From a virus, in IMG/VR virus record IMGVR_UViG_3300033553_000478, positions 18,834 through 82,833 of that record: a stretch of DNA of 64,000 nucleotides; one strand, 5' to 3'. Of the stretch, positions 19,842 to 33,054 are shown one piece after another. Position 1 is the stretch's first letter. Each line of letters opens with the position of its first letter. A model generated the notes under the pieces. It was not told the origin of the DNA. It searched no databases and worked only from the letters and a program-made list of their open reading frames with translations. Both the position numbers and the translations under genes were made by a program.

Positions 19842-19847
19842 ATAAAT

Positions 19848-22454
19848 ATGTCTAATATTGCTGAAAAAGTACAGCTTTTGTTTGATGTCGGAGAATTTGA
19901 GGTGAAACCCCCTAAGCCCGTAGTTCCTATTCCTAAGATGGAAATAGTAACCAGTGTTCCCTACATAGAGGTGGACATTGGTAACATCAGGCAAATGCTC
20001 CCAAAACTCTACGATCATCAGCAACAGGATGTGCTGAAAATAGAGAAACGATTTCAAGTAGGAAAAGGATATCTGTGTACCAACGGTACTGGTACAGGAA
20101 AAACATTCGTTGGACTCGGAACAGTTAAACGGTTCTGGGCAAAAGGATGTAGAAATATTCTTATTGTTACTCCTACTGAAACGAAGTGTGGTGACTGGAT
20201 TGATGAAGGCAAGCACGTTAACCTGAAGCTTTATAAGCTGGAAGGTGTAAACGACAAAGGCCACAATATCCGCGTCACAACGTATGCTAACTATTATCAG
20301 AACGATGAGTTAGATACGGTTATATGGGATCTCGTAGTCTACGATGAATCTCATTACCTCAACCAAAACTCCAAAGGAAATGAAACTGCTTATTTAACCA
20401 AGCATAAATTCATTACCAATCTGCCCTCTTCTGTAAAGAACAGAGCTGGAGATATTGTTGGTGATAAACCCAAGTATGAACTTGGGAATGATTACGAACT
20501 ATATCAATGGCAGCTCGATGCCTGGAGGAATCAAATGCGGACTTACATATTTGATACAGTCGGCAAGACCAAAGTGTTATTCCTTTCAGCTACTCCATTC
20601 GCTTACCATAAATCAATCAAGTATGCGGATGGCTGTTTGTTCGATATCACAGAGTGTATAGAGGAACAGGAAAACCCGAGATCTGGTTATTATAATGAAC
20701 CATCTCCCTGGGAGAAGTTTATGATGGAGCATTTCGGTTACCGAATGAAACATAATAAGCTGACCATTCCAGAAACAGGAGTAGATCAAAACCTTTTAGA
20801 ACGTGCGTTCTTTGAGAACCACGTTCAAAAGGGTGTAATGTCAACCAAAATATTGGAATTGGATTACGATTACTCCCGCGACTTCTTCCTTGTAGATAGT
20901 GAGCTTGGTCACTTCATAAACTCAGGAATTGAGATGTGGTGGAATAAGGATGTTTACGAGAAATATCCTCTTATGGCTAAAGTGGTACCGAAGAAATACC
21001 GGTACCTCTACATCAATCAACTTCTGGAAGCTATTAAAGCTAAGGAGATACTTGACAGGATCCAGCAACATCTGGACCTTGGCCGCAAGGTTGTAATCTT
21101 TCATAGTTACAATCACGCTACCGTAGAGCATCCCTTCAGGTTCAATGAAGATAAGCTTACTACAGCAGACGAAGAATGGTGGAGATCTGACCTTCGGGAT
21201 GAGATACAGAAATGGTATCAGCAATTCCCGCAGTATGCAAACCTCAGCTTAAAAGGATTGAATAACTGCAGGGCTACAATCCGTGAACGCTTTCCGGATG
21301 CATTAGAATTCAATGGTACCATATCCAAGAAAAAGAAGAAGCAAAATATTGAGCTCTTCAATGATGATAACTCCGGATATGATATAATCATTGTTCAATC
21401 TAAGGCTGGCCGTGAGGGGATATCCCTTCACGACAATAAAGGTGGCAAGCCAAGGGTATTGATCAATCAATCATTACCAGTGGCACCAACTGAAGCTATC
21501 CAAACTGAAGGTAGAATCTACCGAAGTGGTTTGCAGAGTAACGCGATGTTTGAATATCCTGTTATTCACACAAGCTTTGAAATGGTAGCTTTCGCAACCA
21601 CGATAGCATCAAGAGCCAAGACTGCAGAAAACCTGGCAATGGGCAATTACGCCCGAGATCTGGAAACTGCATTCAAGGAAGGCTATATGAATGCGACAAT
21701 TGAAGCTCCAAGCTTGGAGCAAGGAGTTGGCGGTAAAGAGAGTGATCGTAAGCTTCTGGAAATATCTGAGTTCGACAAAGCCAAAACATATTACTGGTCC
21801 AGAGCGAAAAAGAATTCCAAGAATAAGGCAGCTGAAGGAGTTGACTACTTCGCTACGCCTGAGCCGTTAGGTATGAAGATGGTAGAGTGGTTGGATCCAC
21901 AACCAGACGAGCACGGTTTAGAACCTTCGGTTGGTCACGGAGCAATCGGAAGATGGTTCCCCGGATTTAGCAACAATGTATTCGTTGAGCCAAGTTTAAA
22001 GCTATTCGGAGAAATGGCAATAAACTGTACAGGCCGTCACGAGAATGTCACCTTTGAAGAATTTAAAATAATAAACAAAGCTGACTTCATTGCAATGAAT
22101 CCACCATTCGGACACCAGGGCAGGACTGCTATTGAGCATATTCAAAAAGCTCTGATACATATGAATCAGAGATCGATGAAAGGCGCAAGACTTCTGGCCA
22201 TTATTCCTAATGGTCCAGCTATGGAAAAGAAACTTGATATCCTTATGGAGCATAAAATATTCAATAGCTTCAGGTATACAGGTGAGATCTTACTCCCAGA
22301 GGTTACTTTCAAGAGAGCCGGTACCGGTGTAATGTGTAGGATTATTAAAATCGAGCACGTCAACACAGGTAACGAGCAATTCAGGAGAATTGACTTATCA
22401 CGTTGCTCAACTATCGAAGAGTTCTTCGACGAGATTGAGCATTTAAATTTCTAA
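19848..22454 (+). CDS. SF2 (strawberry-notch/DarB-like) helicase fused to C-terminal N6-adenine methyltransferase
   Basis: GTGTGKT, DESH, SATP, QTEGRIYR; then YFATPEPL, LEPSVGHGAI, MNPPFG. Confidence 0.85.
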   Translation: MSNIAEKVQLLFDVGEFEVKPPKPVVPIPKMEIVTSVPYIEVDIGNIRQMLPKLYDHQQQDVLKIEKRFQVGKGYLCTNGTGTGKTFVGLGTVKRFWAKGCRNILIVTPTETKCGDWIDEGKHVNLKLYKLEGVNDKGHNIRVTTYANYYQNDELDTVIWDLVVYDESHYLNQNSKGNETAYLTKHKFITNLPSSVKNRAGDIVGDKPKYELGNDYELYQWQLDAWRNQMRTYIFDTVGKTKVLFLSATPFAYHKSIKYADGCLFDITECIEEQENPRSGYYNEPSPWEKFMMEHFGYRMKHNKLTIPETGVDQNLLERAFFENHVQKGVMSTKILELDYDYSRDFFLVDSELGHFINSGIEMWWNKDVYEKYPLMAKVVPKKYRYLYINQLLEAIKAKEILDRIQQHLDLGRKVVIFHSYNHATVEHPFRFNEDKLTTADEEWWRSDLRDEIQKWYQQFPQYANLSLKGLNNCRATIRERFPDALEFNGTISKKKKKQNIELFNDDNSGYDIIIVQSKAGREGISLHDNKGGKPRVLINQSLPVAPTEAIQTEGRIYRSGLQSNAMFEYPVIHTSFEMVAFATTIASRAKTAENLAMGNYARDLETAFKEGYMNATIEAPSLEQGVGGKESDRKLLEISEFDKAKTYYWSRAKKNSKNKAAEGVDYFATPEPLGMKMVEWLDPQPDEHGLEPSVGHGAIGRWFPGFSNNVFVEPSLKLFGEMAINCTGRHENVTFEEFKIINKADFIAMNPPFGHQGRTAIEHIQKALIHMNQRSMKGARLLAIIPNGPAMEKKLDILMEHKIFNSFRYTGEILLPEVTFKRAGTGVMCRIIKIEHVNTGNEQFRRIDLSRCSTIEEFFDEIEHLNF

Positions 22455-22455
22455 A

Positions 22456-22743
22456 ATGAGAAATAGAGAAAAGGACAGCATCAACTGGTTAATGAATCAG
22501 GAAGATGCCAGAGCCCTTATTCAGGTAATTAATCCAAGGGATTTTACTATTATCGAAGCGGTAACACTTCACGTTGGAGCCGTAGATCAAGAGGAAGTAA
22601 TTTCCGAAACCAGTGAAATGGTTCAATGGAAAAGAGAAGAAGCCGAACAAAAGCTTCGTATCTGGATCAATAAAGTGAATGATATTCACGGTCATAAAGT
22701 TGGAGAGAAATACATATACTTCCGATTTAAAAAATGGAACTAA
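22456..22743 (+). CDS. Hypothetical protein
   Basis: 95 aa, in operon. Confidence 0.6.
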   Translation: MRNREKDSINWLMNQEDARALIQVINPRDFTIIEAVTLHVGAVDQEEVISETSEMVQWKREEAEQKLRIWINKVNDIHGHKVGEKYIYFRFKKWN

Positions 22744-22988
22744 TGAAAAAAATAATCTTAGTGCTATTCATAGTAATTAGCTGTGCTTGGCAAACTCCGG
22801 ATTTAAGTAAAGCCTGGCAATCAGGTTACATTGTTGGATGGTGTTACCACCAAGAGTATTGCATTGAGCCAATACCACCAGTGGCACCAATCCCGCGGAT
22901 ACAGGACACAACATATAAAATGATGTACAACCGCGGGTTTATAACAGGACTCAAAGCTTATGAAAAGCAAAGAACAGGTAGAAAATAA
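22743..22988 (+). CDS. Small exported/lipoprotein-like protein
   Basis: MKKIILVLFIVISC signal peptide; Pro-rich CIEPIPPVAPIP. Confidence 0.55.
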   Translation: MKKIILVLFIVISCAWQTPDLSKAWQSGYIVGWCYHQEYCIEPIPPVAPIPRIQDTTYKMMYNRGFITGLKAYEKQRTGRK

Positions 22989-23133
22989 GATCGCCATTCT
23001 AAAATCAGAACTTGAAACCCTTGACGCTATTGCGGCCAAGGGTTTTTCATTTCCTGCAGACAGGAAACATAATGTAGAGCAGCGCCAAGTTAGGCAAGCT
23101 CTTATTGTTGGACTTAAATGGGTATTAAAATGA
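22960..23133 (+). CDS. Small hypothetical protein (57 aa)
   Basis: Manual translation MKSKEQVENKIAILKSELETL...LKWVLK. Confidence 0.55.
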   Translation: MKSKEQVENKIAILKSELETLDAIAAKGFSFPADRKHNVEQRQVRQALIVGLKWVLK

Positions 23134-23360
23134 GCAATACAATTGAATGGCACGATGCCTACGACAAAAATTCCAAGGCTGAACAAGAACGCCTGGAGAG
23201 AGAGGAAAGAGATCGTAAGGAATACGATGAAAACCTCGATAGAGCAAAAGACGAAATGTGGGATGCTCTTGGAACAGATGATTTCAGAACTTCAGATTTT
23301 GATGATATCTGTTCAAATTACGGTATAGATCCTGACGATCTAATTGACGAATTAATTTAA
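23130..23360 (+). CDS. Acidic hypothetical protein
   Basis: Asp/Glu-rich, ends YGIDPDDLIDELI. Confidence 0.65.
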   Translation: MSNTIEWHDAYDKNSKAEQERLEREERDRKEYDENLDRAKDEMWDALGTDDFRTSDFDDICSNYGIDPDDLIDELI

Positions 23361-23364
23361 AGCT

Positions 23365-23655
23365 ATGATTAAATTTGAAGAGCTCCGACCGGAGCTGGTA
23401 GAAATCCTCAAAGAAAACAGTATTGAGGAAAAGGATCTGGAGAATAACTATTCAGATCTATACATTGGCTGCAGTTCTTTTGACCAGGCTGGAAAAATAA
23501 GATCTAAAATTCCGAAGCACGCAGCCCTAACAAGTACCTTCTTTCCGCAGGAAGGTAGCAGTATGGACCACCACAAAATATGTGTAGAGGTGGCATTCGG
23601 CTATATGGATGGGTACTTTGATAAAAAATATGGAAAGCGCAATAAATCCACTTAG
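23365..23655 (+). CDS. Hypothetical protein
   Basis: 96 aa. Confidence 0.65.
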   Translation: MIKFEELRPELVEILKENSIEEKDLENNYSDLYIGCSSFDQAGKIRSKIPKHAALTSTFFPQEGSSMDHHKICVEVAFGYMDGYFDKKYGKRNKST

Positions 23656-23660
23656 AATGT

Positions 23661-23668
23661 TATATTTG
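23661..23668 (+). promoter_or_regulatory. -7 box TATATTTG upstream of the PRTRC/replication operon
   Basis: TAnnTTTG consensus. Confidence 0.55.
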
Positions 23669-23677
23669 TAACTTCTT

Positions 23678-23902
23678 ATGGAAGAAAATGAGAAGCCTAC
23701 CAGAATTTATCTGGTAGATGGAAAACGAGTTGCGATAATCAAGTCAAACACACATACATATAATGTGCGCTTTGTCAAGTCTGGAATATTTATGGAAGTG
23801 TATAAAAAATATGTGATTAGTTGGTTTCCAAAACCCACTAAAAAATCTTCCACACCTATTCCCAAGAAACCAAAAAATTCACAAACCTCGCTGGACTTTT
23901 AG
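23678..23902 (+). CDS. Hypothetical protein
   Basis: 74 aa; C-terminal QTSLDF. Confidence 0.6.
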   Translation: MEENEKPTRIYLVDGKRVAIIKSNTHTYNVRFVKSGIFMEVYKKYVISWFPKPTKKSSTPIPKKPKNSQTSLDF

Positions 23903-23923
23903 TCCGGCATAATACAATTCAAT

Positions 23924-25876
23924 ATGGAACAAATGACCAAAGAGCAGTATATGGAAATGCTTAACTGGGATCAATCCCTTTACAAAATCATATCTGGTGA
24001 GGAAGCCGAACCTTTGTTAAAAATCGGTGGCCACCAGAATTATGTTTATGCTGTTTCGCCTAAAGGTGAGAAAGCATTTGGTAAAGGATCCAAGGTTGTC
24101 AAGATTGATTGGGCAGAAAAGCATTCAGCCCCAGCCGTAGAGCAAACTCCTGCTGCAGCAATTCCACCGCCACCGGCAAACATACCACCCGCCCCGGCCG
24201 CTGCAAGCATACCACCTCCACCAGCTACGGAAGCTGCTATTCCACCGCCTCCGGCACAGGAAGAAAAGCCAGTAGAAGATAACTCCGTTTATGAATTGAG
24301 ATTGGCGCAGCTGAAATCAATTGGATGGAATCAGGTAAGTGATAATGTCCTTGAACGTAAAGACGGTAAGAGGGTAAGTAATGATTACCTGAAGATGATG
24401 AATGATGATGCATTTATGGATCTTATGAAAGCTCCCCTGGAAACTCCTAAAGAGGAACCAGTGAAGGAAGAAGTTAAACAGGCTGAGCCTGCTTGGGAAC
24501 CATACATAAAAACCCGAGTGGCTAATTTAATTAGCCAAGGCTGGAAAGCCGATCAGAACGGCAATTCCGTTGTTATTTCCCCTGAAGGGAAATACTACGG
24601 ATTTATGGAGATAGGTGAGCTCAGCAATAAAGATTACACCGATCTTATCAAAAAGCCGGAAGTTCCTGCAGAGATCAAAGAGATCGCAGATGCCTCTCCG
24701 AATGTGCATATAGTTACTATGCCTAAGGATGATGAACCTACGGCTGAAGATATCGCGAAAGAGAAAGCTAATAAGCTTTTACAAATTCGCAGAATTGCAC
24801 TTTCAGCACTTGGTTTTACCAATGCTCCTGGAGCTGCTATGTGGCAATCTGATATCAATCACAACGTGAGCGATAAAGAAGTGATCGCAATGGGAGAAGA
24901 TGAATTCAAAGACTTCCTGAAACTTATGGATGGTAAAATAGTTACCGTCAAAGCTCAGAAAGCCAGTGAAGATCGTCAGGCCAAAAATGAAGAAATCCGG
25001 AAGCAGAAAGAAGCTGAACAGTCTAATCCTGATGTAGGAGTTGAAATAGCAAATGAAGCTGCTGAGGTTGCCGAGAAGTCAATAAATGAAATGGCAAATG
25101 AAACCGAAGGTATGTCAGCTGTAGAATTGGATGAACACGATGTTCGTAAACTTGCTATTGAGCAAGCTCAGAAACGTGATGATGCCGAGATCGATAAGTA
25201 TGAGGCTGAGAAGAAAATGGATGAATTGATGGAGAAGCTTCAAAAAGAGAATGATGCTCACAAGGAGCAATTCGAGAAATGGAAGCAAGATCTCATTGCT
25301 GAAACTGAAGCGGAGAAAAAGAAAATCCGTGAAGAGTATCAGCAAAAAGAATCTCCAATGACCACCGGAGATGCTGGTGGCTTCTTCGGTTTGCTTGCAG
25401 AGCTGGGTTTTGGGCAGCTGAATTTATCAGTGACAAAGTTGGAAAGCAATAAGTTCAGCGTTATCGTGAAGCCTCAAAACTTCTCAGGCGATCCAGCGTT
25501 GGATGAAATTCGTCCAATGACTTTAAGCGGTTCTCCTGCAGAATTAGATGAAGGTTTCTTCGCTGCTATCAGCCAGCCATTACAGAAAGTCCACGGTGTT
25601 ATGAGTAACGCCCAGGCTGTGATCGCTGATCTGGAAGAGAAAGCCAAGAAAACCAAGGCTGCAGAGGAAGAGAAAAAGAAAGTCACCAAAGCTGTAGAAA
25701 AAGCTAAGAAGCATCATGATGATAAAGATTTTGATGCAAAAAGTGATGCCTCTCTGAAAACTGCAAAGAAGAATTGGGATGCTGTACTGGCATTGGATCC
25801 TGGTAATAAGGATGCAAAGGCCGGACTTGATAAGCTGGAGAAGCAAATCAAGGAGAATGCTGAAACTCTTCTTTAA
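23924..25876 (+). CDS. PRTRC system protein E domain fused to Pro-rich linker, three repeats, coiled coil and TPR-like tail
   Basis: FFGLLAEL...LNLSV...SVIVKP...IRPMTLSGSPAELDEGFFAAISQP is the PRTRC-E pattern; lies upstream of PRTRC-C. Confidence 0.8.
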   Translation: MEQMTKEQYMEMLNWDQSLYKIISGEEAEPLLKIGGHQNYVYAVSPKGEKAFGKGSKVVKIDWAEKHSAPAVEQTPAAAIPPPPANIPPAPAAASIPPPPATEAAIPPPPAQEEKPVEDNSVYELRLAQLKSIGWNQVSDNVLERKDGKRVSNDYLKMMNDDAFMDLMKAPLETPKEEPVKEEVKQAEPAWEPYIKTRVANLISQGWKADQNGNSVVISPEGKYYGFMEIGELSNKDYTDLIKKPEVPAEIKEIADASPNVHIVTMPKDDEPTAEDIAKEKANKLLQIRRIALSALGFTNAPGAAMWQSDINHNVSDKEVIAMGEDEFKDFLKLMDGKIVTVKAQKASEDRQAKNEEIRKQKEAEQSNPDVGVEIANEAAEVAEKSINEMANETEGMSAVELDEHDVRKLAIEQAQKRDDAEIDKYEAEKKMDELMEKLQKENDAHKEQFEKWKQDLIAETEAEKKKIREEYQQKESPMTTGDAGGFFGLLAELGFGQLNLSVTKLESNKFSVIVKPQNFSGDPALDEIRPMTLSGSPAELDEGFFAAISQPLQKVHGVMSNAQAVIADLEEKAKKTKAAEEEKKKVTKAVEKAKKHHDDKDFDAKSDASLKTAKKNWDAVLALDPGNKDAKAGLDKLEKQIKENAETLL

Positions 25877-26040
25877 TGCTGGTATTAAAAGGCATTATCG
25901 TAGAGCAAAAGATCGAGTTCGGTAGGGGAGAGTCCAGAAACTTCTCCCCTGTCCTCGATACTTTAGAGAAAACTTATGAGCTGTCCGAAGAATTCAGACC
26001 GCACATTGGAAGAAAAATGACAATTATAATACAAGATTAA
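25876..26040 (+). CDS. Small hypothetical protein (54 aa)
   Basis: Manual translation MLVLKGIIVEQKIEFGRGESRNF...; TAATG-coupled. Confidence 0.55.
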   Translation: MLVLKGIIVEQKIEFGRGESRNFSPVLDTLEKTYELSEEFRPHIGRKMTIIIQD

Positions 26041-26041
26041 T

Positions 26042-26248
26042 ATGGCTTTAGAAACCGCAGAATTAAAGAGAGTATTCAAACACAAAGATGTTGAATTGGA
26101 AGATGTACCAGGTGCATCTTTGAAGGAAGTTTCAAAGATCTATTCAGGTGTATATCCTGAATTACTCAATACGATGCCTACATATAAGGATATCGTTGAT
26201 GGAGTAGAGATTTATGAGTTCAATGCCAAAGTTGGCCTGAAAGGTTAA
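26042..26248 (+). CDS. PRTRC system protein C (prokaryotic ubiquitin-like)
   Basis: LKRVFKHKDVELED...YSGVYPELLN...YEFNAKVGLKG; C-terminal Gly. Confidence 0.88.
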   Translation: MALETAELKRVFKHKDVELEDVPGASLKEVSKIYSGVYPELLNTMPTYKDIVDGVEIYEFNAKVGLKG

Positions 26249-26250
26249 TT

Positions 26251-26445
26251 ATGTCATTTCTCAAAAAGTTCAGAGAATTATCAAAAGAGTCCGATTGGGG
26301 TAACCCCATCGGACTTTTAAATGATGAACAATCCAGAGAGTTATGCGAAGTAATAATAAGAAATCAGCAGAAAAAAGTCCAAAGCCAAAGCCGGCAGAAA
26401 CGAGTAGATCCTACACAAATATCACGGAATATCTTTCTCACTTAG
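26251..26445 (+). CDS. Hypothetical protein overlapping next ORF
   Basis: 64 aa; good start context (TAATTATG). Confidence 0.4.
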   Translation: MSFLKKFRELSKESDWGNPIGLLNDEQSRELCEVIIRNQQKKVQSQSRQKRVDPTQISRNIFLT

Positions 26446-27506
26446 CGCCAATACATCATTATAGTAAGCTTGAGGTAATGGAGCAATTCGAGCCATTTAA
26501 TTTCAATGGCATATCGAAAGAAGATTTTGAAAAGTTCCTCGAGAAGTTTGATGTAATGCTAAAGAACAGTGGCTACGATCTGGATGATGATATAGAGAAT
26601 ATAGACTGCTTCAGTGACTTCTACAAATATCTTGGGCAATTCGCAAATAAGCTGAATTGTCATTATGATATTGAGTATGAAGAATTGATGAGGTTCACTG
26701 GTGATTTACCTATTCAAGAAACAAACATTCAATCTATAAATACATATTGGGTTGAGAAGCTGATAGATATTTTACCGCCAGACATAGCGCTGTATTTGGA
26801 TTACACTTGTTTTGTAATCCTTCAGAGAGCTACCAAAGTTATGCATTATGATTACCACCTTGCGGAAGAACCTCTGGAGTATAAGTACGATGAAGAGGAA
26901 GAATATGCCGATCAAATACAGATGTGGCATAAGCTTAATAGTTACACTATTGTCCTGTACAAGAAGTTTATCAAGGACAAAAAAACCATAGTTTCACCTT
27001 GCCCGGTTATGAAAGGCAGGCCAGAGAAGGAGCAGCAAATAATTAAGATCTGCAAGTTCCTGGTGAATCATAATGAATATATGGCACTTCAATTTATGCC
27101 GGTAAAATTCTACTTGCAGTGTTGCGGAGAGTCGCATGACGAAGATAGTGAGGAAATGAGCCATATAGCTACACAGCTTATTGATGGCGACGGAGAGTAT
27201 GCCGTAGATGCATATTACAATGCTTATTACGTGCTGACTTATGATAACGGGAACAGCTCATTAATAGATGATTATTGTGAGTTCCTGAACCAGGCATATC
27301 AAATGAATGAATGGTACCACGAAATGAGCAAGATTGTCAAGGTCAATCACAAGAATGAATTTATTCCTGTAAACAAGAAAGCCGCCAGAACAGTTGTAAA
27401 ATATCACGACTCATTTGGCGATTTAAACGAACTTTTAAAAGCATATTACGATGAGAGAGTTGGTGCAAACAATGAAGCCTGTATCGCTGTTGACAGTGTA
27501 CGATAG
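26343..27506 (+). CDS. Hypothetical protein at PRTRC protein F position
   Basis: 387 aa acidic/aromatic protein between C and B; assignment by synteny only. Confidence 0.55.
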   Translation: MRSNNKKSAEKSPKPKPAETSRSYTNITEYLSHLAPIHHYSKLEVMEQFEPFNFNGISKEDFEKFLEKFDVMLKNSGYDLDDDIENIDCFSDFYKYLGQFANKLNCHYDIEYEELMRFTGDLPIQETNIQSINTYWVEKLIDILPPDIALYLDYTCFVILQRATKVMHYDYHLAEEPLEYKYDEEEEYADQIQMWHKLNSYTIVLYKKFIKDKKTIVSPCPVMKGRPEKEQQIIKICKFLVNHNEYMALQFMPVKFYLQCCGESHDEDSEEMSHIATQLIDGDGEYAVDAYYNAYYVLTYDNGNSSLIDDYCEFLNQAYQMNEWYHEMSKIVKVNHKNEFIPVNKKAARTVVKYHDSFGDLNELLKAYYDERVGANNEACIAVDSVR

Positions 27507-28074
27507 TGGCTATATAGATTACCGAGATGTATTGGAAGCGGGAAAGGTTTCAGCTTCCAGACCATTATACCAGGAAACCATAAATGATATTTTCGCAAAT
27601 CTGAGAGGTGATCATAACCTTAAAAGATTTGAAGGTGTCATTCCAAACAAAATGGTTTATGTGGATCCAATGAGAGATCTATTTGTCTGGACCAGAAAAG
27701 CGGAAGTCCGGGAACTTCTACATACAACAAAGAAACATTCCGGAAAATATGCTATTCCTACTCTTGTATTTCGCATTGAGAAGGGCAGTGTGAGTGTTGT
27801 GGCCATAAAGAAATTGGCTATCAATTCTCCTGTATATATTCCCCCGTTTACAAACACAGCAAATGGCGATGTTTGTATGGGTTCCGCTTCTCTGAAAACC
27901 GAGACTTGCGACTGCATTGAAGATCTGGTTGAATATGCCGAAAACCAATTCTACAATTCCTATTTCACTCATTCCCCGACTGAGTACCAGCTTTTGGGAA
28001 AAGGTAAATCTACCTTCCCCAAAAAGGAACTGAAGGCAATGGGTATTAACCTAAAGCAATTTATAAATGGATAG
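27451..28074 (+). CDS. PRTRC system protein B (prokaryotic E2 family D)
   Basis: FVWTRKA...IPTLVF...PPFTNTANGDVCMGS...FYNSYFTH; putative catalytic Cys. Confidence 0.85.
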   Translation: MRELVQTMKPVSLLTVYDSGYIDYRDVLEAGKVSASRPLYQETINDIFANLRGDHNLKRFEGVIPNKMVYVDPMRDLFVWTRKAEVRELLHTTKKHSGKYAIPTLVFRIEKGSVSVVAIKKLAINSPVYIPPFTNTANGDVCMGSASLKTETCDCIEDLVEYAENQFYNSYFTHSPTEYQLLGKGKSTFPKKELKAMGINLKQFING

Positions 28075-28849
28075 CTTGAAAGTTGATCCGTATTTAATAA
28101 ACGGACAGCACAGAATAACTGTGCTCGTAGTGGGAGCTGGTGGAACTGGTGGAAAGGTACTTACCAAGCTTATAGCTTTACACGAAGCTTTGACAAGAAT
28201 GGACCATCCTGGTCTATACGTTACAATGGTGGATCCTGACATAGTAGAGGATCACAATGTAGGCCGGCAATCAAATTTCAGTGCTGCAGATGTAGGCTAC
28301 TACAAAGCTGATGCGCTGATTAGCAAAGTGAATGCCGCTTTCGGATATGATTGGGATTGTGAGAATGTACCATATAGCAATGCTCACGCTGCCAACATAG
28401 TATTTTCCTGTGTAGATAATGCTGAAGCCAGAGCCAAAATATTGGATGCATTTTTCAAAAGGCAGCAGATGTATGATACCAGGAAAGGCTTTTACATATT
28501 TGATTGCGGTAACGCCCGGGATTATGGCCAAGTCATTCTGACTGACCAGAAGCACACCCTGAAGCATATTGGTGATATTGTCCCGGATTGGGATAAGCAA
28601 GATACTGTAGAGCAGCAGGGAGAATCCTGTAGCTATGCTGAAAGCTTACGAAAGCAAGACCTATTCATTAATGATTGGGTTGCTCTGTATGCAGTGAATC
28701 TCTTCAAAGAATTACTATTCAAAAAGGAGATTGATTACCAAGGAGTATTTTTCAATACTGCAGATTTTGATGCAGTTAAAATCAAGATTAACAATGGCAG
28801 TAAGAAACGGAGAAAGACTCGTAACAAATTGGTGGACCGAAAAAACTGA
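28067..28849 (+). CDS. PRTRC system ThiF-family (E1-like) protein
   Basis: VVGAGGTGG, DPDIVEDHNVGRQ, CVDN, DCGN, SCSYAESLRKQDLFIN. Confidence 0.93.
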   Translation: MDSLKVDPYLINGQHRITVLVVGAGGTGGKVLTKLIALHEALTRMDHPGLYVTMVDPDIVEDHNVGRQSNFSAADVGYYKADALISKVNAAFGYDWDCENVPYSNAHAANIVFSCVDNAEARAKILDAFFKRQQMYDTRKGFYIFDCGNARDYGQVILTDQKHTLKHIGDIVPDWDKQDTVEQQGESCSYAESLRKQDLFINDWVALYAVNLFKELLFKKEIDYQGVFFNTADFDAVKIKINNGSKKRRKTRNKLVDRKN

Positions 28850-29000
28850 TTTGATCAATCCTGAAATATATGATAGGATTGATGGGAATGCAAGACGTAG
28901 AATTTATACAAGAATAGCCAAAGGAGAGTCCTTTGGAAATGAAACAGATGAAATCGATGGCTTTAAATACGAATGCCATTGGTCTATTAGAAAATCGTAA
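28794..29000 (+). CDS. Hypothetical protein
   Basis: Likely start MAVRNGER at 28794. Confidence 0.55.
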   Translation: MAVRNGERLVTNWWTEKTDLINPEIYDRIDGNARRRIYTRIAKGESFGNETDEIDGFKYECHWSIRKS

Positions 29001-29003
29001 ACA

Positions 29004-29258
29004 ATGGCTGAAACATTGGAAGATTTGAAGAAGCTTAAACAAGAATATGTTGAAGCTGAGGCTCAGAAGATCGTTGATTATATGGTCAAAAGAGAGCTGA
29101 TTGAAACTCAGGAACAAACTTGTGATCATAGAAATTGGGATACGAAGAAACATACTCACTTCCCCGAGATAGCTGAAAGACTTAGGAAAGAATATGGGTT
29201 GCTGGTACTCAGCAAAGTTCGCCACGGCGTAACTGAATGGGATATAAGAATTAGATAA
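29004..29258 (+). CDS. Hypothetical protein
   Basis: 84 aa, coupled to dnaB. Confidence 0.65.
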   Translation: MAETLEDLKKLKQEYVEAEAQKIVDYMVKRELIETQEQTCDHRNWDTKKHTHFPEIAERLRKEYGLLVLSKVRHGVTEWDIRIR

Positions 29259-30712
29259 TGGATGCAGAAAATGAGGAATTTCAAATACCGCCACCACCGG
29301 TAGATATTCCTAAACCCCCACTTCCGGAAATAATATATCGGAAGGATCCTGAATATCCACCGCTTGACAAAGGCAAAATACCGCCTCAAGCGGTAGACTT
29401 AGAGGAAGTGGTAATTGGAGCTCTTATGATTGACAAGCGGGCAGCGCCCGAGATAATGGGGTTTATGACTCCAGATGTTTTCTATAAGAATGCACACCAA
29501 AATGCTTTTCAAGCCATACAGACCTTGTACGAGAAGGAATTACCCATCGACTTACTTACAGTCGTTGAGGAACTAAGACGTACAGGGAAGCTTGCTATTG
29601 TAGGTGGAGAGTATTATTTGATACAGCTTACTCAAAAGGTAAGTTCTGCAGCTCATATAGAATTTCATTCTCGAATTATTTTACAGAAGTATGTACTTCG
29701 TAGAATGATACAGCTGGGAAATGTAGTCATTGAAGAAGCTTACAATCAAGATCCGGACATATTCGATCTGATGGATAAGTTTGAAAATGATGTGCTGGAT
29801 ATTTCCAATACTGCCCAGAAAGGCAAAAAGGAATCCGGCCCTGCAGATCCTGGAGAGGAACTTCGAGAAAAGGTTAGACTTAAGAGAGAAGGAAAGACAA
29901 TTGGATATCCTTCGGGAATTGAAGAGTTCGATAATTGGGCGGGTGGCTTCCTGAAAAGGTGGCTTTTCATATTGGGAGCCCGACCAGGTATGGGAAAGAC
30001 TTCATTCATTGTTGCAGTCATATATCACTTAGCTTTCGAGAGAGGTGTAAAGGTTGCATTCTTTTCCCTTGAAATGGCAGCTATCGATATTAAGTATCGA
30101 TTAGCTGCCAGGATCCTCGATATTCCATTCAGTAGAATAAATCTTGGAGAGCTCACAGATGAAGAACTTGAAGAGGTAACTGAGATAGTATCAAAAATTG
30201 AGGACTATGGAATCAACATAATTGACAACGTAAGGAACCTCAGCAAGATTACTGTTGAAACCAAGAAGCTGAAAGAAGAAGGTTTTGAAATCTTCTTTTT
30301 GGATTATTTACAGCTGGTAGAGATATCCGGAACTTCCAAGGATTTAACTGGAGAGATGGTGATCATTACCAGAACATTCAAATCACTTAAAAACGATTTA
30401 AACATTCCGTTCATTGCGCTATCACAGATTGACAGAATAGTGGATAAGCGGCCCGGTCATAGACCATTAATTTCAGATCTTAAACAGGCAAGTTCTATAG
30501 AGCAGGATGCTGATATAGTAGCTTTCATTGTGAGGCCAGAGTATTATAATGAGAATAAAAGCAAGATACCTTTGCCACCAGGCAAACCGAATCCTGAATT
30601 TATTGCTCAGTTTATTATTGCAAAAGGAAGGAGTACCGGACTGAAAGATTTTGATATATATCTGGATCTTTCAAAATTTATTTTGAAATCTGGTCATTCA
30701 GTACCTTTTTAA
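29258..30712 (+). CDS. dnaB: Replicative DNA helicase DnaB
   Basis: GKIPPQAVDLEEVVIGALMID, GARPGMGKT, FFSLEM, DYLQL, ALSQ, SIEQDAD, IIAKGR. Confidence 0.96.
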   Translation: MDAENEEFQIPPPPVDIPKPPLPEIIYRKDPEYPPLDKGKIPPQAVDLEEVVIGALMIDKRAAPEIMGFMTPDVFYKNAHQNAFQAIQTLYEKELPIDLLTVVEELRRTGKLAIVGGEYYLIQLTQKVSSAAHIEFHSRIILQKYVLRRMIQLGNVVIEEAYNQDPDIFDLMDKFENDVLDISNTAQKGKKESGPADPGEELREKVRLKREGKTIGYPSGIEEFDNWAGGFLKRWLFILGARPGMGKTSFIVAVIYHLAFERGVKVAFFSLEMAAIDIKYRLAARILDIPFSRINLGELTDEELEEVTEIVSKIEDYGINIIDNVRNLSKITVETKKLKEEGFEIFFLDYLQLVEISGTSKDLTGEMVIITRTFKSLKNDLNIPFIALSQIDRIVDKRPGHRPLISDLKQASSIEQDADIVAFIVRPEYYNENKSKIPLPPGKPNPEFIAQFIIAKGRSTGLKDFDIYLDLSKFILKSGHSVPF

Positions 30713-30715
30713 TTT

Positions 30716-30723
30716 TATATTTG
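30716..30723 (+). promoter_or_regulatory. -7 box TATATTTG
   Basis: TAnnTTTG upstream of HU-like gene. Confidence 0.55.
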
Positions 30724-30756
30724 TTAACGATAAATACATCTACAAAGTATAAAATT

Positions 30757-31044
30757 ATGGTCAAAAAACAATTAGTATCTGAAGTCGCAAAGCAATCAGG
30801 TGTTAGTAAAAAGGACACTGCCCTGGTCATTGATACAATGATCGAAACAATTAAGAGGCAATTATTGATTGGAGTGAATGTCAAAATAACTGACTTCATA
30901 GACTTCAAGAGAGAAATTTCCCCGGAGAGAAAAGGCTTCAACCCGAACACTAAGGAAGAAATAATCATTCCTAAAAAGTGGAGGGTGAAGGTTACTCTTC
31001 CGAAAGCTTTCGTTGAAAAGATTAAGGCAAAACCTATTCACTAA
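30757..31044 (+). CDS. HU/IHF family DNA-binding protein
   Basis: KQLVSEVAKQSGVSKKD...RKGFNPNTKEEIIIP. Confidence 0.9.
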   Translation: MVKKQLVSEVAKQSGVSKKDTALVIDTMIETIKRQLLIGVNVKITDFIDFKREISPERKGFNPNTKEEIIIPKKWRVKVTLPKAFVEKIKAKPIH

Positions 31045-31328
31045 TGAAAGCAGCAAGGAAGTACATATTTAGAAATCCTCTTAAAAATATTTCAAGGGAG
31101 AGTATAGATCAGTACTTGCACACGAATGTATTCAGCACGCCTGAATTTGGCATTCACGTTAAACAAGTTGCGTTAAACCTCAGACTCGACGATCGTATTG
31201 TGAGGGATGTTCTCATAAGCTATTTCAGCAATGTGATGTACATTATCAATACCGTCAGGAAATTAAGAACCAAAATCAACATCTATGGTTTCTTTTCCAT
31301 TATAGTGGAAAAGGGAGATAGGTACTAA
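31044..31328 (+). CDS. Truncated HU/IHF-like protein
   Basis: VKQVALNLRLDDRIVRDVLISYF...KINIYGFFSI resembles the HU N-terminal half. Confidence 0.5.
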   Translation: MKAARKYIFRNPLKNISRESIDQYLHTNVFSTPEFGIHVKQVALNLRLDDRIVRDVLISYFSNVMYIINTVRKLRTKINIYGFFSIIVEKGDRY

Positions 31329-31340
31329 TTCATTTTTATT

Positions 31341-32381
31341 ATGGAAAATTTTCAATTTACCGCCCCGGTTGGAGGCGACAGCAAGAGAATTGATGATGTT
31401 GCATTAATCCCTTCAGGGATGCGACTTTGTACGTTCTATGGACTTGCAGATCTTGGTACCCAAGACAGTAAAAACTTTGGGCCAAAACACAGATGCCAGC
31501 TGGCATTTGAATTCCCTCAAGAATTGAGGATATTTTATGAAGGTGATATTCATAAGCCTTCAGTGATCTGGAGTGAGGAAACTTTCTCAATGGCACCAAA
31601 AGCCAATTTGAGAAAGCATTACGTTCACGGTATGCTTGGCCGTAATCTTAGTGATGAAGAAGCGGCGAAATTCAACATAGCTTCCCTATTAGGAAAGCCA
31701 TTTGTTGCCACCATTTCTCATACTGCAGATGGTAAGTATGCGAACATCACTTCTATTACTCCATTGAGTGATCAGAACAGATTGATGTTTGGATTGCAGG
31801 ATATGAATGTACCTGTGATCAATGATATCTTTGCATATCATATGAGCCAGGGCTTTATTAGTGAGAACTTCAAGAAGCTTCCAAAATTCATTAGAGAAAA
31901 AATAAAAAACTCTGAGGAAGGTGAAGCTCACAAAAAGTCTGGAGGAACATTCCTTGAACCGGATCCAAGTGATTTCAAAAATGCTGGCAAAAAACTTAAG
32001 ATGCTGCCTAATGCAGAGTTCACATACGAACAGTATAAAGCAGCAGAGTGGACTGACCAGATGTTGGTTGATAACGGTAAAGCAGTATGGGAAGCTCCCG
32101 TTGCTCCACCAGCTCCGGTAGGTGCACCAGCAGCTCCACAGGCACCAATCGCCCCAGCTGCTCCGGTTGCTCCACAAGCAATGCCAGCTGCACCGTCAGC
32201 AATACCACCTGCAATGCCAGCTGCTACACCGCCAGCTCCCGCATTGAATCCTCAGGACACCAATGGTAGAATTACCCTTGTACCTGAATGGAGAGGGAAG
32301 CAGTCTGTTGCTGAATGGTTAGCTTCAGGATGGACTGAGGAAGCAATGTTAGCCAAGGGCTACGCTGTTCCAGTAAAGTAG
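31341..32381 (+). CDS. ssDNA-binding/replication protein (short form)
   Basis: DLGTQ...LAFEFP...KANLRK...LLGKPF...YANITSI core, Pro/Ala linker, two WT(D/E)...G repeats; SSB-type DDLPF tail in -1 frame downstream. Confidence 0.7.
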   Translation: MENFQFTAPVGGDSKRIDDVALIPSGMRLCTFYGLADLGTQDSKNFGPKHRCQLAFEFPQELRIFYEGDIHKPSVIWSEETFSMAPKANLRKHYVHGMLGRNLSDEEAAKFNIASLLGKPFVATISHTADGKYANITSITPLSDQNRLMFGLQDMNVPVINDIFAYHMSQGFISENFKKLPKFIREKIKNSEEGEAHKKSGGTFLEPDPSDFKNAGKKLKMLPNAEFTYEQYKAAEWTDQMLVDNGKAVWEAPVAPPAPVGAPAAPQAPIAPAAPVAPQAMPAAPSAIPPAMPAATPPAPALNPQDTNGRITLVPEWRGKQSVAEWLASGWTEEAMLAKGYAVPVK

Positions 32382-32515
32382 AAGGAGTAGGGGAATCAAC
32401 TCAGCAGCCTACTGCTCCACCCGCACCAGCTGAGAAAATTGAAGATCAATTTCCTGCTAACTTCAGCGTGGCTCAAGACGAGCCAGATGAAGAGCACGAT
32501 GATCTTCCATTCTAA
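32378..32515 (+). other. -1 frame extension of SSB (45 codons ending DEEHDDLPF)
   Basis: Open -1 frame VEGVGESTQQPTAPPAPAEKIEDQFPANFSVAQDEPDEEHDDLPF*; stop overlaps next ATG. Confidence 0.8.
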
Positions 32516-32859
32516 TGCACCAGTTTATTTGTAAGGCGAAGTCCGGAGAGCCAATCCCGACTTCGCCTAATAAACTGGAACTTCTGAAAAAGCTTTTAGA
32601 TCATTATGAGAAAACAAATATGTCTTTCAAGTTATCGATCGAACCTATTCAGAAGAATATAAATGAACAGCAGGAATCTTTATACAAGGCGTTCATTTTA
32701 AAAGCAGCAAATCATTTTGGCAACACCTTCCCAGAAATGGAAAACATACTTCGAAATTTAATGCCGGAAGGTCCCAGAGAAAGGTGGAGCACTAATCAAT
32801 TAGATGATTTTATAACCAAGTCCACTGCCTATTTAGGGCAGCACGGATTTCATTTTTAA
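32515..32859 (+). CDS. NinB/Orf-like protein
   Basis: NINEQQESLY...AANHFG...WSTNQLDDFI...GFHF follows NinB-like pattern. Confidence 0.45.
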   Translation: MHQFICKAKSGEPIPTSPNKLELLKKLLDHYEKTNMSFKLSIEPIQKNINEQQESLYKAFILKAANHFGNTFPEMENILRNLMPEGPRERWSTNQLDDFITKSTAYLGQHGFHF

Positions 32860-32862
32860 TTT

Positions 32863-33054
32863 ATGATATACTTAATAATGGCGCAGATCTGTAGGATCGG
32901 AGTCGTATGGACAACGAGTATGGTTTTCCGAAAAATATTTCGGACAGCTGCTATTTCATTTGTCGGTATGTACCTGGTTGAAAGAGTTCACCGTCAACAA
33001 AAAAGAGAGCAACAATATATAGATGGAGACAGCAGCAGACATAGACTTAACTAA
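32863..33054 (+). CDS. Small hypothetical protein
   Basis: 63 aa, hydrophobic. Confidence 0.45.
   Translation: MIYLIMAQICRIGVVWTTSMVFRKIFRTAAISFVGMYLVERVHRQQKREQQYIDGDSSRHRLN

What the first reader, a model, noticed from the sequence alone, without database searches (positions are those of the whole stretch)
23924..28849. Phage-encoded ubiquitin-like conjugation (PRTRC) cassette wired into the replication module
Seen: a contiguous E-domain protein, a small ORF, a 68-aa Ub-like protein ending VGLKG, a 387-aa unknown, an E2-like protein with NxxxxxxVCMG, and an E1/ThiF with GAGGTGG, NVGRQ and SCS motifs. The cassette lies two short genes upstream of dnaB, HU and SSB, downstream of a TATATTTG box. 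Established: PRTRC (ParB-related ThiF-related cassette) is known from plasmids and ICEs, and its function and targets are uncharacterised. Inference: a virion-RNAP crAss-like phage carries a ParB-less version with intact catalytic residues. It may tag host or phage proteins, for example replisome or defence factors, or counter host Ubl-based immunity.
Basis: partly seen in the sequence, partly recalled or inferred. Interest (0 to 1): 0.9.

Follow-up and report, generated by a model that had tools for sequence, protein, structure and literature searches.

The report
Phage ubiquitin-like tagging cassette, PRTRC-type
An uncultured cold-spring phage, distantly like crAss phages, carries inside its DNA-replication genes a complete-looking kit for attaching a small ubiquitin-like protein to other proteins; it is a stripped-down relative of a known but never-tested bacterial cassette, and what it tags is unknown.

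Summary
At 23924-28849 (+) lie six packed genes. HMMs identify PRTRC protein E (650 aa), a 68-aa Prok_Ub/PRTRC-C protein ending in Gly, a Prok-E2_D/PRTRC-B E2 and a PRTRC ThiF E1. A 54-aa ORF and a 387-aa protein match no family. The host record is an 82.8-kb virus contig rated complete. It has no ParB, no PRTRC A (JAB), no D and no recognisable F.

The five-gene core E-Ubl-F position-E2-E1 is common. Relatives of the E1 are encoded by 278 IMG/VR stretches and at least 289 stretches in bacterial genomes, nearly all Bacteroidota. The context is either a phage replication module (dnaN, dnaB, helicase) or an ICE module (topoisomerase, DUF3945), never both.

A metagenome contig keeps the window's order from E to Dda helicase at 43-54% identity. 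Contigs of two samples bridge both cassette borders, so it is not a chimera.

Phage PRTRC cassettes are already on record (Ralstonia phage Dina, a B. gladioli prophage paper). This scan noted them on other DNA many times.

New leads: E proteins carry a clamp-binding-like motif, often beside dnaN, and a hairpin follows the Ubl gene. Function remains untested.

The parts
23661..23668 (+). TATATTTG box, resembling a Bacteroidota-type -7 promoter element (that consensus is recalled). It lies 10 nt before the 74-aa ORF that heads this gene run.
   Evidence: 9 copies in the window against 4.5 expected; 3 of 100 shuffles reach 9. Other copies sit before the HU-like gene (30716) and before the 3901-aa ORF (55027, minus strand). 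This is a consensus match only.
23678..23902 (+). 74-aa ORF of unknown function between the box and the cassette.
   Evidence: No homologue in the 80 IMG/VR loci by tblastn.
23924..25876 (+). PRTRC protein E, 650 aa. The E domain lies at residues 486-644 and includes a TPR-like helical hairpin and a Lys-rich stretch. It follows a ~480-aa extension with four IPP[PA]P motifs.
   Evidence: PF19556 3.9e-23; TIGR03741 1.9e-11. (alignment A7). (weak TPR matches, best E 0.003). (IPP[PA]P motif). The L162 homologue is 621 aa with the same layout.
25876..26040 (+). 54-aa ORF. Its start overlaps the stop of E by one base and it ends 1 nt before the Ubl start codon. Unknown function.
   Evidence: No family match. 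Absent at this place in L162 and not found by tblastn in the 80 IMG/VR or 33 metagenome loci.
26042..26248 (+). Ubiquitin-like protein (PRTRC C / Prok_Ub), 68 aa, made with its C-terminal Gly already exposed (…G-L-K-G-stop).
   Evidence: G65 and G68 are invariant and K67 is in at least 90% of 37 sequences; 64 of 67 Ubl-position ORFs end in KG and 1 in HG.
26285..26318 (+). Strong hairpin followed by a U run, in the 95-nt gap between the Ubl gene and the next gene. It looks like a terminator or attenuator.
   Evidence: -26.2 kcal/mol for 80 nt, z -5.3, 0 of 200 shuffles as good. The same place in L002 (z -4.8), L008 (z -2.4) and L163 (z -4.2) holds hairpins of different sequence. L162 is weaker (z -2.1) and L165 has none. 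The simple terminator scan did not list it.
26343..27506 (+). 387-aa protein in the position of PRTRC F. It belongs to a fast-evolving family of unknown fold.
   Evidence: only 3 homologues at E <= 0.001 among 1.84 billion representatives; the L162 protein at the same position is homologous (hhalign 98%, E 1.7e-13, 330 columns); only a weak link to the main F-position family (probability 25%, E 7.6e-4); no match to TIGR03742.
27451..28074 (+). E2-like protein (Prok-E2_D / PRTRC B-like), 207 aa, putative catalytic Cys142.
   Evidence: P132, N135, C142 and G144 are invariant in 43 sequences. No solved relative by profile search.
28067..28849 (+). E1-like adenylating enzyme (PRTRC ThiF family), 260 aa, invariant Cys188. 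Its start overlaps the E2 stop by 8 nt.
   Evidence: 188.6 bits against 144.75. (invariant residues); the nearest solved sequences are eukaryotic E1 catalytic subunits (best E 1.1e-7), ahead of Cap2 and ThiF (about 3e-4).
29258..30712 (+). Context: DnaB-like replicative helicase, two short ORFs downstream of the E1. It is followed by an HU-like gene, a 346-aa protein and a Dda-like helicase.
   Evidence: The same order is kept in L162 at 43-54% identity.

Best explanation
This is a ParB-less and JAB-less variant of the PRTRC-type ubiquitin-like conjugation cassette. It corresponds to operon type 6d of Iyer, Burroughs and Aravind 2006. It has been inherited within a lineage of uncultured phages that are distantly crAss-like, and it is transcribed with their replication genes.

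Inferred chemistry:
1. The 260-aa E1 adenylates the free C-terminal Gly68 of the 68-aa Ubl.
2. The E1 takes the Ubl as a thioester on Cys188.
3. The Ubl passes to Cys142 of the E2.
4. The Ubl ends up on lysines of target proteins.

No trimming peptidase is needed, because the Ubl is made already ending in Gly.

Protein E and the fast-evolving 387-aa protein have no recognisable catalytic motif. Most likely they set location and target choice. The constant placement beside replication genes, and the docking-type motifs in E proteins, point to DNA-bound or replisome proteins of phage or host as targets.

The hairpin after the Ubl gene would let E and the Ubl be made in excess over the enzymes.

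Shown: gene content, conserved residues, synteny and spread. Inferred: every chemical step, the targets and the role of the hairpin.
For: - Family matches above the curated cut-offs for E, C and ThiF, and Pfam Prok-E2_D for B.
- Invariant E1 nucleotide-binding and Arg/Gln residues and Cys188 in 26 of 26. Invariant E2 Cys142 and Asn135 in 43 of 43.
- The Ubl ends in KG in 64 of 67 position-matched ORFs.
- Prok-JAB is found in 0 of 50 viral records that carry the cassette, including 0 of 30 rated at least 90% complete. In Ralstonia phage Dina the Ubl runs on past GRKG and PRTRC A is annotated.
- Gene order E-C-F-B-ThiF is the same as in Dina.
- Cassette genes found among the 80 IMG/VR loci: E 72, Ubl 76, E2 79, ThiF 80.
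- Context by clustering, IMG/VR loci: 48 of 80 replication-type, 7 ICE-type, 0 both, 25 neither. Bacterial loci: 15 of 80 replication-type, 32 ICE-type, 0 both, 33 neither.
- L162 keeps E-Ubl-F-E2-E1-DnaB-HU-g94-346aa-g114-Dda.
- The window's E1 lies in a clade of 14 (support 99) with metagenome proteins only. The next set of 20 holds no bacterial-genome row.
- Depth is even, and contigs from two samples bridge both borders without differences. GC content is unremarkable.
Against: - No biochemistry exists for any PRTRC system in the library searched. The 2026 prophage paper says the function has not been studied (passages).
- TIGR03737 (B) scores 56 against a cut-off of 131, and F is not recognised.
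- No E3-like or substrate-binding domain was identified.
The Atlas model of the 387-aa protein has pTM 0.22. There are no solved relatives.
- A single C-terminal Gly instead of Gly-Gly is also compatible with sulfur-carrier chemistry.
- The window's own E lacks the GSLF-type motif seen in most E proteins, and the phage has no dnaN.
- The tree is a FastTree with a midpoint root.
Confidence: 0.6

Rival explanations
1. Counter-defence or host takeover. The phage tags host defence proteins or other host proteins, or interferes with host Ubl-based immunity (Bil, CBASS Cap2/Cap3).
For: The F-position protein evolves very fast. It has 3 homologues at E <= 0.001 in 1.84 billion representatives, and the mean column identity of the main F family is 19%. 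That pace fits an arms race. A 2026 preprint reports recurrent variation in PRTRC protein B of a Phocaeicola vulgatus prophage (passages only). The cassette is phage-borne.
Against: The same core sits at a fixed place beside replication genes in phages and beside topoisomerase/DUF3945 in ICEs, never in a variable island. No deconjugating peptidase is present, though countering host Ubl tagging would call for one. PADLOC gives only weak matches to the E1 nucleotide-binding region, best 8.1e-6 at 22 bits, and nothing for the other five proteins.
Confidence: 0.15
2. Sulfur-carrier or adenylation pathway without protein conjugation. The E1 activates the small protein as ThiF/MoeB activate ThiS/MoaD, to thiolate or otherwise modify a nucleic acid or cofactor.
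For: The E1 belongs to the ThiF superfamily. The small protein ends in a single Gly. A PAPS-reductase-like gene lies about 7 kb downstream at 35879-36790 (phrog_424, 9.6e-30).
Against: An E2-like protein with an invariant Cys is always encoded beside the E1 (79 of 80 IMG/VR loci). ThiF, MoeB and SAMP-E1 equivalog models score far below their cut-offs, for example 35 against 159. The best solved matches are eukaryotic conjugation E1s. None of the cassette's six proteins matched a rhodanese or a cysteine desulfurase, and the neighbouring ORFs scanned did not either.
Confidence: 0.08
3. A defence or exclusion system carried by mobile elements for the benefit of the element or the lysogen, as Bil and CBASS are.
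For: It is borne by mobile elements and patchily spread. Iyer et al. 2006 compared these operons with restriction-modification, toxin-antitoxin and CRISPR systems in their mobility (passages). About 20 of the 50 viral records examined are proviruses.
Against: The window's record has crAss-like TerL and portal genes, and the ORFs that were scanned show no integrase. The scans were not exhaustive. The cassette is kept in synteny with dnaB at about 50% protein identity, which looks like a core replication-module function. There are no PADLOC matches beyond the E1.
Confidence: 0.07
4. An inactive remnant or an assembly artefact.
For: TIGR03737 scores below its cut-off, and F, A, D and ParB were not found.
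Against: All ORFs are intact and tightly coupled. Catalytic residues are invariant. The cassette is conserved in a 14-member clade and in L162. Contigs from two samples cover the region evenly at 100% identity and bridge both borders.
Confidence: 0.03

Closest known systems
PRTRC (ParB-Related, ThiF-Related Cassette; NCBIfam TIGR03734-03742). Annotated examples: Ralstonia phage Dina (NC_055026, gp02-gp07) and the B. gladioli prophage AB2 (PMC13366799).
   Same: Same gene order, E-C-F position-B-ThiF. E, C and ThiF score above the NCBIfam cut-offs. Carried by a phage. Function untested (passages).
   Different: No ParB, no protein A (JAB), no protein D and no recognisable F. The Ubl ends at Gly, whereas Dina's Ubl has a tail after GRKG. 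E is 650 aa with the E domain at the C-terminal end, against 183-197 aa in Dina and BgVeeders33. E1 identity to those phages is only 30-37%.
[quoted passage not shown]
   Same: Ubl, E1 and E2 are present, plus a fast-diverging protein between the Ubl and E2 genes. The E2 lacks the classical His-Pro-Asn, and an Asn 7 residues before the Cys is invariant. Bacteroides is among the taxa listed.
   Different: No JAB. The extra E protein is not part of that description. The His after the catalytic Cys is present in the window (FTH) but is not among the invariant or 90% columns of the 43-sequence alignment.
The Bacteroidota five-gene core (E-Ubl-F-E2-E1) in prophages and in ICEs with topoisomerase/DUF3945. 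It is unnamed in the literature I could search.
   Same: Same five positions and strand. The Ubl ends in KG. No Prok-JAB.
   Different: The window's clade has its own F-position family, a long E, an extra 54-aa ORF and a roughly 95-nt gap with a hairpin after the Ubl gene. The window itself has no dnaN; the relatives were not searched for it.
Bacterial antiviral Ubl systems: CBASS Cap2/Cap3 (PMC10097602, listing and abstract seen) and Bil (recalled, not read here).
   Same: The E1-E2-Ubl logic. There is weak similarity in the E1 nucleotide-binding region to Cap2 (E 2.9e-4) and to the PADLOC 'E1-E2' models.
   Different: E1 and E2 are separate small proteins. There is no JAB, no cyclase or effector, the cassette is encoded by the phage itself, and the context is replication genes.

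Membership tests
PRTRC (NCBIfam TIGR03734-03742) | ThiF-family E1 matching TIGR03736 above its cut-off | tested here: met
   188.6 bits against 144.75, E 1.1e-55, model positions 3-241 of 245.
PRTRC (NCBIfam TIGR03734-03742) | Protein C (Ubl), TIGR03738 / Pfam Prok_Ub | tested here: met
   47.1 against 45.95 bits, which is marginal. PF14454 43.7 against 25.
PRTRC (NCBIfam TIGR03734-03742) | Protein E, TIGR03741 / PF19556 | tested here: met
   43.9 against 37.95, and 82.5 against 26 bits. It covers only residues 486-644 of 650.
PRTRC (NCBIfam TIGR03734-03742) | Protein B (E2-like), TIGR03737 | tested here: inconclusive
   56.3 bits, below the cut-off of 131.45. Pfam Prok-E2_D scores 61.9 against 25. 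The Cys is invariant.
PRTRC (NCBIfam TIGR03734-03742) | Protein F, TIGR03742 | tested here: not met
   No match in the genome at E <= 10 or for the 387-aa protein. None of the 9 other F-position or related proteins scanned matched it either. The equivalence is by position only.
PRTRC (NCBIfam TIGR03734-03742) | Protein A (JAB peptidase), TIGR03735 / Prok-JAB | tested here: not met
   No TIGR03735 match, though that search rang in no control genome. PF14464 gives only 13.8 bits against 25, on a RadC-like protein at 16651-17103.
PRTRC (NCBIfam TIGR03734-03742) | ParB homologue, TIGR03734 / ParB_N | tested here: not met
   No match at E <= 10 or at E <= 1 for PF02195, in a record rated 100% complete.
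PRTRC (NCBIfam TIGR03734-03742) | Protein D, TIGR03739 | tested here: not met
   No match at E <= 10.
E1-E2 ubiquitin-like conjugation chemistry | Ubl with a free C-terminal Gly; E1 ATP-binding and catalytic residues; E1 and E2 cysteines | tested here: met
   This is sequence evidence only.
E1-E2 ubiquitin-like conjugation chemistry | ATP-dependent thioesters and isopeptide conjugates | not testable with these tools
   Needs biochemistry.
E1-E2 ubiquitin-like conjugation chemistry | Beta-grasp, UBC and Rossmann-type E1 folds | not tested
No solved relatives of the Ubl or the E2 by profile search.
crAss-like phages (Crassvirales and distant relatives) | crAss-type large terminase | tested here: met
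   72 phage records matched. The 15 listed are crAss-like phages or unnamed 'Bacteriophage sp.' fragments, at 24-26% identity over 81-84% of the protein. The similarity is distant.
crAss-like phages (Crassvirales and distant relatives) | Giant virion RNA polymerase | tested here: inconclusive
   The 3901-aa ORF has no Pfam or PHROG match. There is one tblastn hit to a crAssphage 'putative RNAP': 28% over 199 aa, E 4e-4. Homologues exist in L002, L008 and L168.
Known antiviral Ubl systems (CBASS Cap2/3, 6A-MBL, Bil) | Match to the defence-system models | tested here: not met
   PADLOC gives only E1-E2 models at 13-22 bits on residues 15-120 of the E1, and nothing for the other five proteins. 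NCBIfam 6A-MBL cap2_3 scores 21.6 against 320.
ThiF/MoeB sulfur-carrier activation | Match to the ThiF/MoeB equivalogs | tested here: not met
   35 against 159, 32 against 275 and 18.5 against 266 bits.

The most novel reading that the evidence does not exclude
The PRTRC-type core is a replisome-directed tagging system. Protein E docks on the beta sliding clamp and on DNA, and brings the E2~Ubl to the clamp or to clamp-bound proteins. That would be a phage and mobile-element counterpart of PCNA ubiquitination and SUMOylation in eukaryotes.

Basis:
- 54 of 61 non-redundant E proteins carry [GQSPNAT]x[LMI]F after the E domain. Shuffled tails give a mean of 8 and a maximum of 19.
- The motif often reads Q-G/N-S-L-F, close to the published clamp-binding consensus QL(S/D)LF.
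- Q.[SD][LMI]F is about 40 times denser in E tails than in the other ORFs of the same loci (consensus from PMC9690074, passages).
- dnaN lies directly upstream of E in 24 of 80 IMG/VR loci.
- Proteobacterial phage E proteins carry an RGRP stretch, which resembles an AT-hook (the AT-hook reading is recalled).

The window's own E lacks the motif. Instead it shares IPP[PA]P with DnaB.
Probability: 0.2. Interest if true: 0.9.

Novelty: new variant of a known kind. Interest (0 to 1): 0.5.

Why it matters
Iyer and colleagues predicted five bacterial E1/E2/Ubl operon types in 2006. From recall, the CBASS and Bil types have since been shown to be antiviral. In the library I searched, nothing has been tested for the PRTRC type.

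Here the cassette is encoded by the virus itself, inside its replication operon, in a lineage far from the few cultured phages that carry it. The same core is very common in Bacteroidota prophages and ICEs, and gut species that can be grown are among the carriers. So the question 'what does a mobile element tag with its own ubiquitin-like protein?' can be tested in culturable relatives.

If the link to the sliding clamp holds, it would be the first clamp-directed Ubl system outside eukaryotes.

A practical point: the near-invariant Lys before the terminal Gly means that trypsin would leave a single-Gly remnant on targets. That matters for the design of any mass-spectrometry search.

Tried and rejected
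- DNA search of the cassette against 50,697 phage records: no match.
- Single-protein scan of IMG/VR: no relative. The alignment-based scan worked.
- The 64-aa ORF at 26251-26445 is rejected as a gene or a frameshift partner. Its apparent conservation (NIFLT ending) follows from the conserved E-Y-L/F-S-x-L of the overlapping 387-aa frame, and its body holds the hairpin.
- Linking the 387-aa family to the main F-position family: phmmer and jackhmmer found nothing. hhalign was weak (25%). Pfam on 52 F-position proteins gave nothing consistent, at most 2 of 52 for any family. The PDB profile search gave nothing.
- ESM Atlas for the 387-aa protein: its model has pTM 0.22, there was no usable feature hit, and all structure rows have TM below 0.4.
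- RadC-like JAB (16651-17103) as the missing peptidase: rejected as a general partner. RadC is found in only 2 of 50 cassette-bearing viral records.
- Literature:
  - 'PRTRC': 45 papers, 30 listed, mostly annotation mentions.
  - crAss-like / ubiquitin-like / ThiF, crAss + ThiF and Crassvirales + ubiquitin: nothing on such a cassette in crAss-like phages.
  - Pfam names: nothing relevant.
  - Papers' supplements were closed and may list such genes.
- No RNA holder was listed for the stretch. One RNA run of the same study holds next to none of its words.
- The contexts of the closest E1 relatives (P0002-P0013) and of P0047-P0049 could not be fetched.
- The resemblance between the E N-terminus, the C-terminus of the 346-aa protein and the C-terminus of the L008 E protein (a W-T-D/E-type stretch) was seen by eye only and was not tested.

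Full report
**What is there.** On the + strand between 23924 and 28849 lie six tightly packed ORFs.
- A 650-aa protein whose residues 486-644 are a PRTRC_E domain (PF19556, 3.9e-23; TIGR03741, above its cut-off).
- A 54-aa ORF with no match.
- A 68-aa Prok_Ub / PRTRC_C protein ending G-L-K-G-stop.
- A 387-aa protein with no match in Pfam, NCBIfam, PHROGs or PADLOC.
- A 207-aa Prok-E2_D protein. PRTRC_B scores 56 bits, below its cut-off of 131.
- A 260-aa PRTRC ThiF-family E1 (188.6 bits against 144.75).

Stops and starts overlap or abut, except for a 95-nt gap after the Ubl gene. The E2 motif has five, not six, residues between Asn135 and Val-Cys142.

**Residue conservation.**
- E1 relatives, 26 aligned: the glycine-rich loop, D56, D58, N64, G66, R67, Q68, K80, D117 and C188 are invariant.
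- E2 relatives, 43 aligned: P132, N135, C142 and G144 are invariant.
- Ubl relatives, 37 aligned: G65 and the terminal G68 are invariant, and K67 is present in at least 90%.

**What carries it.** The window is bases 18834-82833 of an 82,833-bp IMG/VR virus record. CheckV rates it 100% complete and no terminal repeats were found.
- It encodes a large terminase, a portal and a GroEL-like chaperonin.
- The terminase matches 72 phage records. The 15 listed are crAss-like phages or unnamed fragments, at only 24-26% identity.
- The 3901-aa ORF has no Pfam or PHROG match. It gives one weak hit to a crAssphage 'putative RNAP' (E 4e-4).

'Distantly crAss-like' is therefore reasonable, but 'virion RNAP' is not shown. 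Two DNA runs of one cold-spring metagenome study hold 95-96% of the stretch's sampled words.

**Not a chimera and not a recent capture.** Contigs of both runs cover 19000-34500 at even depth (about 4-7) with no differences. Single contigs bridge 23924 (X1 record 2) and 28849 (X1 record 5, X2 record 14). One of the samples may be the source of the record. GC content is unremarkable.

A metagenome contig, L162 (SDBT01015982.1), keeps the order E - Ubl - F position - E2 - E1 - DnaB - HU-like - g94 - 346-aa protein - g114 - Dda helicase. Identity is 34-54% over these proteins: 34% for the E2, 35% for the HU-like protein and 43-54% for the rest.

In a FastTree of 203 E1 rows the window lies in a clade of 14 (support 99). 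The other 13 are metagenome proteins at 51-59% identity. The next set of 20 (support 86) holds only IMG/VR and metagenome rows. Most rows with topoisomerase/DUF3945 neighbours sit in one other clade of 67. The root is a midpoint root, so I draw no direction of transfer.

**What is missing.** The whole record has none of the following:
- PRTRC_A. That search rang in no control genome, so it is weak evidence.
- PRTRC_D, PRTRC_F and PRTRC ParB.
- A ParB_N domain.

Prok-JAB gives only a sub-threshold hit, on a RadC-like JAB protein at 16651-17103 (PF04002, 7.1e-39). RadC occurs in only 2 of 50 other cassette-bearing viral records, so I do not count it as part of the system.

**How common the core is.** A profile of the E1 found 278 encoding stretches among 412 candidates in IMG/VR. 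By their titles, 76 of the 80 best genome loci are Bacteroidota.

In the 80 IMG/VR loci kept, iterative searches find E in 72, the Ubl in 76, E2 in 79 and E1 in 80. All lie on one strand in the order E, Ubl, a 350-430-aa protein, E2, E1.

Of 67 ORFs in the Ubl position, 64 end in K-G and one in H-G. The other two look like mis-picked ORFs.

None of 50 viral records searched has Prok-JAB, including none of the 30 rated at least 90% complete. These 50 were the longer contigs among the 80.

By contrast, Ralstonia phage Dina is annotated with PRTRC E, C, F, B, A and ThiF in that order. Its Ubl continues for 64 residues past G-R-K-G. So a peptidase goes with a Ubl that needs trimming, and the Bacteroidota/phage form has neither.

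**Two exclusive contexts.** I clustered the neighbours within 10 kb, using BLASTP E < 1e-10 and at least 60% coverage. Pfam or NCBIfam on representatives gave two kinds of neighbourhood.
- Replication type: DnaN, DnaB, a ResIII/DEAD helicase, VRR-NUC.
- ICE type: type IA topoisomerase, DUF3945/DUF4099.

| Set | Replication type | ICE type | Both | Neither |
|---|---|---|---|---|
| IMG/VR loci (80) | 48 | 7 | 0 | 25 |
| Genome loci (80) | 15 | 32 | 0 | 33 |

dnaN lies directly upstream of E in 24 IMG/VR loci. The window belongs to the replication type, but it has no dnaN of its own.

**The 387-aa protein.** An exhaustive phmmer search found only three homologues at E <= 0.001, of 371-386 aa. 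None matches PRTRC_F. The L162 protein in the same position is homologous (hhalign 98%, E 1.7e-13).

The main F-position family is itself very divergent, with a mean column identity of 19% over 52 sequences. It matches neither TIGR03742 (0 of 6 scanned) nor any Pfam family consistently. The two families link only weakly, at collinear positions (hhalign 25%, E 7.6e-4).

[quoted passage not shown] 2006 (PMC1779556, passages). Homology is not shown.

**Protein E.** The usual E is about 200 aa. It has an N-terminal E domain, a Lys-rich helical part with weak TPR-like matches (best E 0.003), a short motif and an acidic tail.
- 54 of 61 non-redundant E proteins have [GQSPNAT]x[LMI]F after residue 110. 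Shuffled tails give a mean of 8 and a maximum of 19.
- 12 of 61 have Q.[SD][LMI]F. That is 1.68 per 1000 aa, against 0.04 in the other ORFs of the same loci.
- A review gives QL(S/D)LF as the bacterial clamp-binding consensus and notes that it tolerates variation (PMC9690074, passages).
- The E proteins of the two proteobacterial phages carry an RGRP stretch, which I read from recall as AT-hook-like.

The window's E and that of L162 differ. Their E domain is C-terminal, and they end in E-T-L-L and S-K-L-L. They have a roughly 480-aa N-terminal extension.

In the window, IPP[PA]P occurs 7 times in all six frames. Four are in E, one is at the DnaB N-terminus and two are in the 370-aa protein at 38099. 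I read E as a docking or adaptor protein, or as a substrate. This is inference.

**The hairpin.** In the gap after the Ubl gene the window has a 34-nt hairpin followed by a U run (26285-26318; z -5.3).
- Hairpins of other sequence occupy the same place in L002 (z -4.8), L008 (z -2.4) and L163 (z -4.2).
- L162 has a weaker one without a U run (z -2.1), and L165 has none.
- Most Bacteroidota loci have only about 25 nt there, for example L004.

If the hairpin terminates part of the transcripts, E and the Ubl would be made in excess over the enzymes. This is untested.

**What is known.**
- The E1 profile's nearest solved sequences are eukaryotic NEDD8, UBA6 and UBA1 E1s (1e-7), ahead of Cap2 and ThiF (3e-4).
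- The E2, Ubl, E and F profiles have no solved relative.
- PADLOC gives only weak E1 matches.
- A 2026 paper on B. gladioli prophages calls the cassette a 'ParB/ThiF-partitioning cassette' and says its function has not been studied (PMC13366799, passages).
- A 2026 preprint notes recurrent variation in PRTRC protein B of a P. vulgatus prophage (passages).
- My searches found nothing on such a cassette in crAss-like phages.
- Earlier notes of this scan describe phage PRTRC-type cassettes on other DNA many times: 537 notes in at least 391 genomes hold the search words. They include a JAB-less one and one placed in replication modules.

**Verdict.** The cassette is real and intact, and it belongs to a phage. 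It is a variant of a known but untested family. It is one more case of a pattern already on record, so the interest of the bare finding is moderate. The leads on clamp docking, the exclusive replication and ICE contexts and the hairpin give concrete experiments.

**Limits.** The tree is a quick one. The motif evidence is statistical, not biochemical.

Noticed in passing
window 16651-17103 (+): A RadC-like JAB-domain protein (PF04002, 7.1e-39) with an intact H-x-H…S-x-x-D motif, about 7 kb upstream of the cassette. RadC is found in only 2 of 50 other cassette-bearing viral records, one being the L008 phage, so it is probably unrelated to the Ubl system.
   Followed up: yes
window 23924-25876, 29258-30712, 38099-39211: IPP[PA]P occurs 7 times in the six-frame translation of the whole window, all in three proteins of the replication region: PRTRC-E (4), the DnaB N-terminus (1) and a 370-aa protein (2). 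It may be a shared docking motif. First-stage notes had flagged it.
   Followed up: partly
L009, L027 and 22 other IMG/VR loci; E-protein alignment A7: dnaN (TIGR00663) lies directly upstream of PRTRC-E in 24 of 80 IMG/VR loci. Most E proteins carry a G/Q-x-S-L-F type motif that resembles the beta-clamp-binding consensus.
   Followed up: partly
L195 (Ralstonia phage Dina) 2338-3330; L196 (Burkholderia phage BgVeeders33) 2153-2701: The proteobacterial phage E proteins carry an RGRP stretch, AT-hook-like by recall. Dina's Ubl has a 64-residue tail after G-R-K-G and a PRTRC A gene is annotated. This fits the rule that a peptidase is present only where the Ubl needs trimming.
   Followed up: partly
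window 19848-22454 (+): An 868-aa fusion of a helicase (SNF2/DEAD-type) with a methyltransferase-like C-terminal part. It matches the middle of much longer PHROG families (phrog_10691, 5.9e-275).
   Followed up: no
window 6115-7764 (-): A phage-encoded GroEL-like chaperonin (phrog_5725, 6.7e-123) next to the packaging genes.
   Followed up: no
window 35879-36790 (+): A PAPS-reductase-like gene (phrog_424, 9.6e-30) in the replication region. It could belong to a DNA-modification pathway. It is the only hint for the sulfur-chemistry rival.
   Followed up: no
window 23924-24010, 32000-32381; L008 7500-7716: By eye, the N-terminus of the window's E, two stretches near the C-terminus of the 346-aa protein and the C-terminus of the L008 E protein share a short E-Q/E-Y…W-T-D/E…L pattern. 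It was not tested statistically.
   Followed up: no
window 43298-55003 (-): A 3901-aa ORF with no Pfam or PHROG match. It is preceded by a TATATTTG box at 55027-55034. Homologues exist in L002, L008 and L168. There is one weak hit to a crAssphage 'putative RNAP'.
   Followed up: partly
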